DNA of 64,000 nt from the NCBI RefSeq assembly GCF_988242995.1, contig NZ_OZ547043.1; one strand, written 5' to 3'. Within the stretch, counting starts at the first letter, position 1. Each line of letters opens with the position of its first letter. Positions 11,525 through 27,873 of the stretch are shown piece after piece. The position numbers and the translations under genes were made by a program. The notes beneath the pieces were generated by a model. That model was not told where the DNA came from. It saw only the letters and a program-made list of their open reading frames with translations, and did no database searches.

Positions 11525-12740
<1,216 letters not shown>

Positions 12741-12810
12741 AAATCGCGGAAGGGATGAAACAACAGCGCCTGACGGCGCTGTGTCTGGCATGCCTGCAAT
12801 CCGGGAGACT

Positions 12811-12905
<95 letters not shown>

Positions 12906-12912
12906 ACTATTA

Positions 12913-13746
12913 TTAACGCATATTCAGTTTATTGGCGTGGTAGGCAATATGCTCGCCAATAAAACTGGAGACAAAATAATAGCTGTGATCATAACCCTCG
13001 TGATAACGGATTAACGTTTTGATATTCATCTCCTGGCAGATCTTTTCAAGATTTGGAGTCCGCAGCTGTTCTGCGTAAAAATCATCACTCAACCCCTGAT
13101 CAACCATTATTTCCGCAATGCGTTGACCTTGTGAAATAAGACTCACCGGATCGTAATCCAACCAGGCTTCTTTATTTTCACCAAGATATGCGGTAAAGGC
13201 TTGCTGTCCCCACGGTACTTGCGATGGGGAGACAATGGGCGAAAACGCCGAGACGCTGACATATTCATCTGGATTACGTAACGCCAGCACCAGTGCGCCC
13301 AGCCCGCCCATAGAATGACCTGAGATAGACTTTCTGGCCGTTGCCGGAAAATGTTGCATCACTAAATCCGGCAGTTCGTTGCGGATATAGTCATACATTT
13401 TGTAATGTTCATTCCACGGCGCTTGCGTTGCGTTCAGGTAAAACCCGGCACCTTGCCCGAGATCGTAACGGTCGGCATCTGCGACATGACTGCCTCGCGG
13501 ACTGGTGTCTGGCGCAACAACAATAATGTTGTGCTCCGCCGCGTAACGTTGCATCCCTGATTTAGTAATGAAATTCTGCTCGTTGCAGGTCAGGCCCGAA
13601 AGCCAGTACAACACCGGCAATTTTTCACTTGCGGCTTTTGGTGGGAGATAGACGCCGACATTCATTTCACATTTCAGTGATTGGGAATAATGCCGATACA
13701 CATTTTGCCAGCCGCCAAAGCTGGCATGTTTTTCAATGAGTTCCAT
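12913..13746 (-). CDS. frmB: S-formylglutathione hydrolase
   Basis: 277-aa ORF MELIEKHASFGGWQNVYRHYS..., GHSMGG serine hydrolase motif. Confidence 0.93.
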   Translation of the reverse strand: MELIEKHASFGGWQNVYRHYSQSLKCEMNVGVYLPPKAASEKLPVLYWLSGLTCNEQNFITKSGMQRYAAEHNIIVVAPDTSPRGSHVADADRYDLGQGAGFYLNATQAPWNEHYKMYDYIRNELPDLVMQHFPATARKSISGHSMGGLGALVLALRNPDEYVSVSAFSPIVSPSQVPWGQQAFTAYLGENKEAWLDYDPVSLISQGQRIAEIMVDQGLSDDFYAEQLRTPNLEKICQEMNIKTLIRYHEGYDHSYYFVSSFIGEHIAYHANKLNMR

Positions 13747-13839: not shown

Positions 13840-14979
<1,140 letters not shown>

Positions 14980-14983
14980 TCAG

Positions 14984-15259
14984 CTATTTAAGATAGGCAC
15001 GAACCAGTTCAATAGTGTCGTCAACGGATTGGCTGACTTCGCGGCTGTAGCAGTCATTTCGGTCAAACGTTTCCCGGATATGGCTTTCAAGCACTTCTGC
15101 CATCAGCCCGTTAGCCGCGCCCCGAACGGCAGCGATCTGTTGGAGTATGGCACGGCATTCGGCATCACCCTCCAGCGACCGTTCCAGAGCATCAATCTGC
15201 CCCCGAATACGACGAACTCGAGTAAGGACCTTTTTCTTCTCTTCCGGAGTACTGGGCAT
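14984..15259 (-). CDS. frmR: formaldehyde-responsive repressor FrmR (CsoR/RcnR family)
   Basis: ORF 14984..15280; ATG at 15259 gives [30 protein letters not shown]..., 91 aa. Confidence 0.9.
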
Positions 15260-15284
15260 TTCGCACCTCATCATCTGCACGCAA

Positions 15285-15335
15285 TATACTATAGGGGGGT
15301 ATGCTATATGTCAATGCATACCCCCCTATAGTATA
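15285..15335. promoter_or_regulatory. frmRAB operator/promoter inverted repeat with G6/C6 tracts
   Basis: tatactataggggggtatgc - tatatgtcaat - gcatacccccctatagtata, a near-perfect 20-bp dyad just upstream of the frmR start. Confidence 0.7.
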
Positions 15336-15443
15336 TAACACTGGAGAATAAAATTTATCCGGTGAATGTAGTCGGATAACAAAAAGTAAAGAGGGGCCTA
15401 ATCGACAGGGAAGGCCGCCCCGGATAGCGGGCGGCAGAAGCAA

Positions 15444-16217
15444 TCAGAATTTCCAGGTCAGATGGGCTGCAAATTGCAGACCGTTATAATCATCAGTTGG
15501 GGTGTCGTACCACACTTTACCTGCCGTCAGCCCGAGATTAAGTTGCTCAGTCAGCGGTTGAATACGTTGCAAACTGACGCTCTTCATGCTGCCGTAGCGT
15601 GTTTCTGGCGTCCAGTCATAGGTGTAAGCGCCTGTTCCGCGGCTTAGCCATAGTTGCGTATAACCAGTGCCGCGCGGGTCATTCAGACGCACGGAAATCA
15701 TATTGCTGTAACTACCACCTGCATCGCTGGAGTCATAATGGGTATAGCGGTAGCTGGAGATCACCGGGCCAGTATAGAGTGATACGCCGCCTTGCCAGGC
15801 ATCGACTTCGACATCATCGTAATATTTCGTGTAGCGATAACCGGTCGTGAAAAGCGTTTTTGGCAACAGTGCCAGGTTAATATCCTGACGAAAATCCTGG
15901 CGGGCAAAGACCGGCGTATTATCCGCAAAGGCAATACCCGTTCGGGTTGTCAGCCAGTTATTCCATTTATACCAGACCGCACCCTGACCGCGAGTGGCAT
16001 TGAAATGTTCAGTTTCATAATCACGACGCCCCTGGGAAAGATTAAAAAGCAGCGTTGCGTTTTCAACTTTCGCCACCAGTTCAGCATACGCTAAATTACG
16101 GTTGCCATGATCGCCAGAATAATCGGTAAAATCGTAGCCCGCGGTAATGGAAGTTAACCCGGCATAAGCGGGCAATGCGCTAAAAATTGCTGCCGCTAAT
16201 AACGTCCGTTTTATCAT
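15444..16217 (-). CDS. yaiO: outer-membrane beta-barrel protein YaiO
   Basis: 257-aa ORF with signal peptide MIKRTLLAAAIFSALPAYA and C-terminal ...HLTWKF. Confidence 0.88.
   Translation of the reverse strand: MIKRTLLAAAIFSALPAYAGLTSITAGYDFTDYSGDHGNRNLAYAELVAKVENATLLFNLSQGRRDYETEHFNATRGQGAVWYKWNNWLTTRTGIAFADNTPVFARQDFRQDINLALLPKTLFTTGYRYTKYYDDVEVDAWQGGVSLYTGPVISSYRYTHYDSSDAGGSYSNMISVRLNDPRGTGYTQLWLSRGTGAYTYDWTPETRYGSMKSVSLQRIQPLTEQLNLGLTAGKVWYDTPTDDYNGLQFAAHLTWKF

Positions 16218-27190: not shown

Positions 27191-27873
<683 letters not shown>

What the first reader, a model, noticed from the sequence alone, without database searches (positions are those of the whole stretch)
15285..15335. Near-perfect 20-bp dyad with G6/C6 tracts at the frmRAB promoter
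tatactataggggggtatgc / gcatacccccctatagtata flank an 11-bp spacer just upstream of frmR. The homopolymeric G/C tracts inside each arm are unusual for E. coli operators and fit binding of a tetrameric CsoR/RcnR-family repressor (FrmR) across a long site.
Basis: partly seen in the sequence, partly recalled or inferred. Interest (0 to 1): 0.3.

Follow-up and report, generated by a model that had tools for sequence, protein, structure and literature searches.

The report
Known FrmR operator at frmRAB promoter
The palindrome is real, but it is the already published pair of binding sites through which the formaldehyde-sensing repressor FrmR shuts off the E. coli formaldehyde-detoxification operon, so it is ordinary.

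Summary
Window 15284-15304 and 15316-15336 are perfectly complementary 21-nt arms around an 11-nt spacer. This is the longest short-range inverted repeat in the 64 kb window and far beyond chance. It lies 25 nt upstream of the frmR start codon; frmRAB is on the minus strand.

It is the known FrmR operator of the E. coli frmRAB promoter. Denby et al. 2016 (PMC5146963) describe this "large inverted repeat centred at -29" as two tandem type I CsoR/RcnR-family sites, ATAC-N9-GTAT. Each arm is therefore a complete site, not half of one long site.

The spacer carries a perfect -35 (TTGACA). The promoter-proximal site contains the -10. Bound FrmR would block RNA polymerase, and formaldehyde cross-linking of FrmR releases it.

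I found an ATAC-N8-10-GTAT site upstream of 68 of 80 frmR homologues across Proteobacteria. Only 21 of them have two sites. The spacing between sites varies, and the G6/C6 homopolymers are specific to Escherichia.

Verdict: real, functional, already known, low interest.

The parts
15284..15336 (.). Whole dyad: perfect 21-nt arms (15284-15304 and 15316-15336), 11-nt spacer, centre at 15310
15318..15334 (-). Promoter-distal FrmR type I site. It reads ATAC-TATAGGGGG-GTAT on the frmR (minus) strand and ends 3 nt upstream of the -35.
   Evidence: Pattern match. Site definition from Denby 2016. Conserved position in two-site promoters.
15286..15302 (-). Promoter-proximal FrmR type I site. It reads ATAC-CCCCCTATA-GTAT on the minus strand, fills the -35/-10 spacer, and its last 6 nt are the -10.
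   Evidence: This is the site conserved upstream of 68 of 80 frmR homologues.
15309..15314 (-). -35 hexamer TTGACA, inside the dyad spacer
   Evidence: 10 of 12 match overall, 17-nt spacing. TTGAC is nearly invariant between the two sites in other genera.
15286..15291 (-). -10 hexamer TAGTAT. The alternative TATAGT at 15288-15293 would have only 15-nt spacing.
   Evidence: read directly from the sequence
15278..15282 (-). Predicted transcription start. With the dyad 'centred at -29' in Denby 2016, +1 falls near 15281. It was not mapped here.
   Evidence: Inferred
15266..15271 (-). Shine-Dalgarno GAGGTG for frmR
   Evidence: Sequence; conserved as GTGAGGT in the alignment
14984..15259 (-). frmR, 91 aa, with Pro2, Cys35 and His60 present
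13840..14949 (-). frmA, S-(hydroxymethyl)glutathione dehydrogenase
   Evidence: TIGR02818, 743 bits
12913..13746 (-). frmB, S-formylglutathione hydrolase
   Evidence: TIGR02821, 399.5 bits

Best explanation
The dyad is the operator of the autoregulated frmRAB promoter. It is made of two complete type I CsoR/RcnR-family sites (ATAC-N9-GTAT, each a G/C-rich core flanked by a short AT-rich inverted repeat), placed head to head. Together they read as one 53-bp palindrome. The distal site (15318-15334) ends 3 nt upstream of the -35 TTGACA, which lies in the spacer. The proximal site (15286-15302) fills the -35/-10 spacer and includes the -10. Without formaldehyde, disc-shaped FrmR tetramers occupy both sites and exclude RNA polymerase. 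The most likely arrangement is one tetramer per site. Formaldehyde forms Pro2-Cys35 methylene bridges between subunits, which moves the basic DNA-contact patches apart. FrmR then dissociates, and frmR, frmA and frmB are transcribed until the formaldehyde is consumed. Shown here: the anatomy, the promoter overlap, and conservation of the site. Shown in the literature: FrmR binds Pfrm DNA, represses transcription in vitro, and is released by formaldehyde; transplanted sites confer FrmR control. Inferred: the exact stoichiometry and the steric-occlusion step on the E. coli promoter.
For: Anatomy. The only sigma-70-like promoter in 14900-15600 is on the frmR strand, with its -35 in the spacer and its -10 in the proximal arm. 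The repressor gene is the FrmR equivalog, matching the crystallised EcFrmR 5LBM over all 91 residues at E = 4e-55. [quoted passage not shown] It reports a Kd of about 220 nM on Pfrm against about 3600 nM on control DNA, dissociation by formaldehyde, and FrmR-dependent repression of in vitro transcription. Osman 2015/2016: Salmonella FrmR binds its C6 site as two tetramers, and mutating one flanking T/A repeat abolishes binding. PMC11127321: inserting ATACN9GTAT sites upstream of the -35 and into the spacer of the constitutive promoter J23100 made it repressible by FrmR and about 40-fold inducible. Conservation: 68 of 80 frmR homologues from Alpha-, Beta- and Gammaproteobacteria have an exact ATAC-N8-10-GTAT within 150 nt upstream, against 0.0096 expected from the rest of the same loci. 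76 of the 80 have frmA downstream. In an 11-genus alignment the invariant columns are ATACT, GTAT, TT (TTGA at >=90%; C at >=70%), ATAC and AGTAT. Within E. coli, the common variants fall at 15303/15304, just outside the 17-mers. From my own memory, not retrievable here: Rohlhill et al. 2017 (sort-seq of Pfrm) reported two 19-bp repressor sites, one upstream of the -35 and one overlapping the -10.
Against: I found no nuclease or hydroxyl-radical footprint of E. coli FrmR on this DNA. Denby's binding assays used a whole promoter fragment, and the transcription start is predicted rather than mapped. Stoichiometry on the E. coli two-site operator has not been measured. Salmonella FrmR loads two tetramers on a single site, so four tetramers, or one bridging tetramer, are not excluded. 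PMC11127321 reports that a truncated PfrmR keeping both sites lost repression. That hints that upstream DNA also contributes, as in RcnR wrapping, or it may be a construct artefact.
Confidence: 0.93

Rival explanations
1. A single FrmR tetramer, or a higher oligomer, recognises the whole 53-bp palindrome as one long operator. It would use both faces of the tetramer disc to bridge the two arms. On this view the large-scale symmetry itself is functional.
For: Denby 2016 raises this because the centres are about 31 bp apart, against 19 bp for RcnR. The arms in this window are perfect over 21 nt, 2 nt beyond each 17-mer on both sides. 32 bp is close to three helical turns, so both sites face the same side.
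Against: Many frmR promoters work with a single site (47 of the 68 with a site). Where two sites exist, the centre spacing is 32, 33, 34, 35, 39.5 or 23 bp. In Erwinia the two sites are direct rather than inverted repeats (15 of 17 identical in direct orientation against 10 of 17 inverted). In E. coli the extra inner 2 nt of the arm are the positions that vary between strains (GC, TC, GA). The -35 element must stay accessible in the spacer.
Confidence: 0.05
2. The palindrome acts as a nucleic-acid structure rather than, or in addition to, a protein site. It could be a cruciform in supercoiled DNA, or an RNA hairpin at the 3' end of read-through yaiO transcripts acting as a terminator or stabiliser.
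For: The predicted hairpin is strong (-21.5 kcal/mol as DNA, z = -7) and has an AT-rich centre. yaiO ends 108 nt upstream on the same strand, and no canonical terminator was detected between them.
Against: There is no T/U run after the stem, so it is not an intrinsic terminator. No Rfam family reaches its gathering score; only sub-threshold miRNA-hairpin look-alikes appear. Conservation across genera follows the ATAC/GTAT/TTGAC letters and not stem pairing. The arms are not complementary in Erwinia or Deefgea. In strains where yaiO is replaced by fbpC or tauA the dyad is retained unchanged.
Confidence: 0.02

Closest known systems
E. coli K-12 Pfrm operator as published (Denby et al. 2016 Sci Rep, Fig. 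6a; Osman et al. 2016 JBC, Fig. 2D)
   Same: It is the same locus and the same element: two ATAC-N9-GTAT sites forming a large inverted repeat centred near -29 of the frmRAB promoter. The 17-mers and the spacer are identical to K-12.
   Different: This window's allele has G at 15303 where K-12 has T. The arms are therefore perfect over 21 nt instead of being interrupted at the second-innermost position. The window allele is the commoner one among complete E. coli genomes (3554 against 1033 records).
E. coli RcnR operator in the rcnR-rcnA intergenic region (TACT-G6-N-AGTA x2; Iwig & Chivers 2009, as cited in Denby 2016)
   Same: Both are type I sites of the same repressor family: a G6 tract flanked by a TACT/AGTA-like inverted repeat, with two tandem sites in an autoregulated promoter. 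The FrmR consensus from 60 distinct promoters, ATACTCCCCTATAGTAT, contains TACT-N7-AGTA.
   Different: The core is different: ATAGGGG(G) in place of GGGGGGN. No match to the RcnR motif with up to 2 mismatches exists in the window. The centres are 32 bp apart rather than 19 bp. The effector is formaldehyde rather than Ni/Co.
Salmonella Typhimurium frmRA operator (Osman 2015/2016)
   Same: A C6 tract flanked by a T/A-rich inverted repeat in an frm promoter, bound by FrmR tetramers and released by formaldehyde. The flanking repeat is required for binding.
   Different: It has a single site, which nevertheless binds two tetramers. The FrmR proteins are only 52% identical and the authors call the operator sequences 'distinct'.

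Membership tests
Type I CsoR/RcnR-family (DUF156) operator site | A G/C tract of about 3-8 bp flanked by a short AT-rich inverted repeat | tested here: met
   ATAC-TATAGGGGG-GTAT and ATAC-CCCCCTATA-GTAT at 15286-15302 and 15318-15334. These are the only two ATAC-N9-GTAT matches in 64 kb (0.43 expected). The definition is quoted from Denby 2016.
Type I CsoR/RcnR-family (DUF156) operator site | Lies in, and overlaps the core elements of, the promoter of an operon that encodes the cognate family repressor | tested here: met
   The -35 is in the spacer and the -10 is inside the proximal site. The downstream gene is the FrmR equivalog NF008464, matching PDB 5LBM over its full length (E = 4e-55).
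Type I CsoR/RcnR-family (DUF156) operator site | The site is conserved upstream of orthologous regulator genes | tested here: met
   68 of 80 frmR loci have an exact ATAC-N8-10-GTAT within 150 nt upstream, against 0.0096 expected.
Type I CsoR/RcnR-family (DUF156) operator site | The repressor binds this DNA directly and specifically, and the effector releases it | not testable with these tools
   From the literature only. BLItz gives a Kd of about 220 nM on Pfrm against 3600 nM on control DNA, with formaldehyde-driven dissociation and repression of in vitro transcription (Denby 2016). Transplanted sites confer FrmR control (PMC11127321). No base-resolution footprint was found.
RcnR operator (TACT-G6-N-AGTA) | Match to the TACTGGGGGGNAGTA motif | tested here: not met
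   There are no matches with up to 2 mismatches anywhere in the window. The architecture is the same but the core differs, so this is not an RcnR site.
Rho-independent terminator | A GC-rich hairpin followed directly by a T/U run | tested here: not met
   No terminator-like sites were found in 14900-15600 on either strand. The stem is followed by TGCGTGCAG.
Repetitive palindromic or mobile element (REP, MITE) | Multiple dispersed copies per genome | tested here: not met
   The median is one place per E. coli genome, and the element is unique in the window.
Curated structured RNA (Rfam) | A match at or above a family's gathering score | tested here: not met
   No gathering-level hits were found in the whole window. 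Only sub-threshold plant and animal miRNA hairpin models matched (26.8 bits or less against cutoffs of 90-139).

The most novel reading that the evidence does not exclude
The perfect 21-nt symmetry and the expansion of the core to a clean G6/C6 are specific to Escherichia. They might not be incidental. They could mark a derived binding mode, such as one tetramer bridging both sites through its two faces, a four-tetramer sandwich, or A-form or cruciform-prone DNA. They could also make the operator tunable by homopolymer slippage, since G8 and C5 alleles are seen in individual assemblies. Either would give Escherichia a different repression set-point from genera with interrupted cores.
Probability: 0.07. 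Interest if true: 0.35.

Novelty: already known. Interest (0 to 1): 0.08.

Why it matters
For discovery purposes it matters little. The element, its repressor, the effector chemistry and the promoter's use as a formaldehyde biosensor are all published. This check adds three small points. The functional unit is the 17-bp ATAC-N9-GTAT site, not the 53-bp palindrome. That site accompanies frmR-frmA across Alpha-, Beta- and Gammaproteobacteria, mostly as a single copy between the -35 and the -10. The second, upstream copy is present in only 21 of the 80 loci sampled (mostly Enterobacterales, plus Aeromonas, Deefgea and Paraburkholderia). The stoichiometry and geometry of FrmR on the two-site E. 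coli operator are still unmeasured.

Tried and rejected
- **Terminator or RNA element:** the promoter/terminator scan found no terminator. Two Rfam scans found nothing at gathering score, and the only hits on the dyad were sub-threshold miRNA hairpin models.
- **Repeated or mobile palindrome:** rejected, because there is one copy per genome.
- **RcnR cross-site:** rejected, because the RcnR motif has no match with up to 2 mismatches.
- **Divergent promoter on the + strand:** none found. The spacer is not symmetric.
- **Sort-seq and biosensor papers:** I tried to read Rohlhill 2017 (DOI and PMC5569641), Woolston 2018 (PMC5699943) and Herring & Blattner 2004 (PMC522192). None is held. Five reviews or papers that cite them gave no base-level detail. 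The '19-bp sites' statement therefore rests on my memory only.
- **Experimentally mapped transcription start:** I looked for one and found only 'predicted' in Denby 2016.
- **G/C-tract length polymorphism as a common feature in E. coli:** among 11 sampled alleles only two had length changes (G8, C5) and one had a substituted distal core. I cannot tell these apart from assembly errors.

Full report
**1. Observation**

Window 15284-15304 (ATATACTATAGGGGGGTATGC) and 15316-15336 (GCATACCCCCCTATAGTATAT) are 100% complementary over 21 nt, around an 11-nt spacer. The symmetry centre is at 15310.

This is the longest perfect inverted repeat with a spacer of 20 nt or less in the 64 kb window. The runner-up has 13-nt arms at 27203-27232. 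Thirty first-order Markov simulations of the window gave a maximum arm of 12. As single-stranded DNA it folds at -21.5 kcal/mol, against -6.8 +/- 2.1 for dinucleotide shuffles (z = -7.05). It is not a chance feature.

**2. Context**

All the relevant genes are on the minus strand:

| Gene | Coordinates | Evidence |
|---|---|---|
| frmR | 14984-15259 | NCBIfam equivalog NF008464, 189 bits against a cutoff of 133; full-length match (E = 4e-55) to crystallised EcFrmR, PDB 5LBM |
| frmA | 13840-14949 | TIGR02818 |
| frmB | 12913-13746 | TIGR02821 |
| yaiO | 15444-16217 | upstream neighbour |

The region is the E. coli yaiO-frmR intergenic region. 5415 of 5426 complete E. coli genomes have it, and one strain (7/2) is 100% identical over 251 nt. 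The dyad ends 25 nt upstream of the frmR ATG.

**3. Anatomy**

The only sigma-70-like promoter found in 14900-15600 is on the frmR strand:
- The -35 is TTGACA at 15314..15309, inside the dyad's spacer.
- A 17-nt spacer follows.
- The -10 is TAGTAT at 15291..15286, inside the promoter-proximal arm.
- The overall match is 10 of 12.

Each arm contains one ATAC-N9-GTAT 17-mer, at 15286-15302 and 15318-15334. These are the only two matches to that pattern in the window, where 0.43 are expected by chance. Each 17-mer has its own internal short inverted repeat (ATAC/GTAT) around a G/C-rich core. The 53-bp palindrome is therefore two quasi-palindromic sites placed head to head. One sits just upstream of the -35. 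The other fills the -35/-10 spacer and includes the -10.

**4. What the literature already says**

- **Denby et al. [quoted passage not shown]' The paper compares these explicitly to the tandem TACTGGGGGGNAGTA sites of RcnR. It shows that EcFrmR binds Pfrm DNA (Kd about 220 nM, against about 3600 nM for control DNA). Formaldehyde dissociates the complex. FrmR represses frmRAB transcription in vitro, and formaldehyde relieves the repression. The structural basis is Pro2-Cys35 methylene bridges that move the basic patches apart.
- **Osman et al. 2016 (PMC5016687).** Fig. [quoted passage not shown] Mutating one flanking repeat of the Salmonella site abolishes binding.
- **Osman et al. 2015 (PMC4528141).** Two tetramers bind per Salmonella probe.
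- **A 2024 biosensor paper (PMC11127321).** The authors inserted 'the FrmR binding site (ATACN9GTAT)' upstream of the -35 and into the spacer of the constitutive promoter J23100. With FrmR overexpressed, they obtained complete repression and about 40-fold induction. This shows the 17-mers are sufficient.
- **From my own memory.** The sort-seq study of Pfrm (Rohlhill et al. 2017) reported two 19-bp repressor sites, one upstream of the -35 and one overlapping the -10. I could not retrieve that paper.

The finding is therefore already described at the level of sequence, protein, effector and mechanism.

**5. Evidence added here**

*Across species.* I fetched 80 frmR homologue loci from species-representative genomes of Alpha-, Beta- and Gammaproteobacteria.
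- 76 have a frmA homologue directly downstream on the same strand.
- 68 have an exact ATAC-N8-10-GTAT within 150 nt upstream of the start.
- The rest of the same loci give 0.0096 such sites per equivalent length.
- The consensus of 60 distinct proximal sites is ATACTCCCCTATAGTAT, often preceded directly by TTGAC. In Brucella/Ochrobactrum, for example, the promoter reads TTGACATACTCCCCCATAGTATATAG. There, a single site sits between the -35 and the -10.

*Two-site promoters.* Only 21 loci have two sites:

| Lineage | Centre-to-centre spacing (bp) |
|---|---|
| Escherichia, Deefgea | 32 |
| Erwinia | 33 |
| Edwardsiella, Providencia, Serratia, Aeromonas, Morganella | 34 |
| Pantoea | 35 |
| Allele shared by Citrobacter, Klebsiella and Maribrevibacterium (distal site is N10) | 39.5 |
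| Paraburkholderia | 23 |

In Erwinia the two sites are direct rather than inverted copies.

*Alignment.* In an 11-genus alignment the invariant or nearly invariant (>=90%) columns are ATACT, GTAT, TTGA, ATAC and ATAGTATAT. The core is G6 only in Escherichia. Elsewhere it reads GTGGAG, GTGTAG, GGGAGG, ATATAG and so on.

*Within E. coli.* The exact 53-mer is found in 3554 records, and the K-12 allele (15303 G>T) in 1033. In 11 sampled alleles the common differences lie at 15303 and 15304, which is outside the 17-mers. Rare alleles show G8, C5 or a substituted distal core.

*Reading.* Together these results say the 17-mer is the selected unit. The large-scale palindrome and the clean homopolymers are lineage-specific features rather than requirements.

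**6. Mechanism**

Apo-FrmR tetramers occupy the two sites that bracket the -35 and cover the -10, and they exclude RNA polymerase. Formaldehyde cross-links Pro2 to Cys35 across subunits. Both residues are present in the window's FrmR. DNA affinity then collapses and frmRAB is transcribed. Because frmR is the first gene of the operon, the circuit is a negative autoregulatory loop.

- **Shown in the literature:** binding, release and in vitro repression.
- **Shown here:** overlap with the promoter elements, and conservation.
- **Inferred:** steric occlusion as the repression step, and one tetramer per site.

I give this explanation a confidence of 0.93.

**7. Rivals**

- **One long site bridged by a single tetramer.** Single-site promoters, the variable spacing and the Erwinia direct-repeat arrangement all argue against it. 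I give it 0.05.
- **A structural DNA or RNA role.** There is no U-tract, no Rfam family, and conservation follows letters rather than pairing. The dyad is also retained where the upstream gene is replaced. I give it 0.02.

**8. Open points**

- No base-resolution footprint of EcFrmR was found, and no mapped transcription start.
- Stoichiometry on the two-site operator is unmeasured.
- One report says a truncated PfrmR that keeps both sites lost repression. This may point to a contribution from upstream DNA, as in RcnR wrapping, or to a construct effect.

**9. Verdict**

The novelty class is 'already known', and interest is low.

Noticed in passing
window 11568-12844 (transposase ORF 11760-12740, + strand): A 1277-bp segment between yaiL and frmB is absent from the otherwise near-identical strain 7/2. 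It encodes a 326-aa IS110-family 'RNA-guided transposase' (NF033542, 253 bits). The size and protein length match what I recall of IS621, the bridge-RNA recombinase element that targets REP sequences. A sub-threshold REP-like naRNA4 hit lies right beside it at 12867-12907.
   Followed up: partly
window ~15351-15443 (upstream of the dyad); loci L003, L004: Synteny breaks just upstream of the frm promoter. In some E. coli strains fbpC (FORC_044) or tauA (AVS0787) replaces yaiO as the neighbour. Sequence homology to the window ends at about 15351 or 15362, only 15-26 nt beyond the dyad. The promoter's upstream boundary therefore coincides with an indel or rearrangement junction.
   Followed up: partly
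window ~15390-15405 versus K-12 (L001): In the yaiO-frmR intergenic region K-12 and strain 81EVA carry a G10 run (GGAAAGGGGGGGGGGC) where this window has GTAAAGAGGGGCC. This is a second homopolymer-length polymorphism about 60 nt upstream of the operator, next to the GC-rich hairpin after yaiO.
   Followed up: no
L002 (strain 81EVA), L003 (FORC_044), L092 (strain 06-00048): Rare operator alleles in complete E. coli assemblies: G8 instead of G6 in the proximal site, C5 instead of C6 in the distal site, and a distal core CCATACCCCTGTATAGTAT. I cannot tell real alleles from homopolymer assembly errors.
   Followed up: partly
L010, L013, L015 (Citrobacter freundii MAG, Klebsiella grimontii, Maribrevibacterium harenarium): Near-identical loci in unrelated genera encode a FrmR that is 91% identical to E. 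coli's, with a two-site promoter whose distal site is ATAC-N10-GTAT. The frmR gene is followed after a gap not by frmA but by an open reading frame (>=277 codons, running off the locus) that I take, from its sequence alone and without a family search, to be an iron-type (group III) alcohol dehydrogenase. This suggests a mobile FrmR-controlled cassette.
   Followed up: partly
L012 (Edwardsiella anguillarum plasmid 1), L014, L022: A frmR-frmA module (a frmA homologue lies directly downstream; frmB not checked) with a 17/17 perfectly inverted pair of sites (ATACTATAGTGGAGTAT / ATACTCCACTATAGTAT, 34 bp apart) is plasmid-borne in Edwardsiella. A near-identical promoter and frmA (94.6% to the window's FrmA) occur in an Enterobacter sp. 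and in Morganella psychrotolerans. This is consistent with horizontal spread of the module together with its operator.
   Followed up: no
window 27203-27232: This is the second-longest perfect short-range inverted repeat in the window: 13-nt arms (TAATGCCCGTCAA) with a 4-nt loop. It was not examined, and a terminator is the obvious guess.
   Followed up: no
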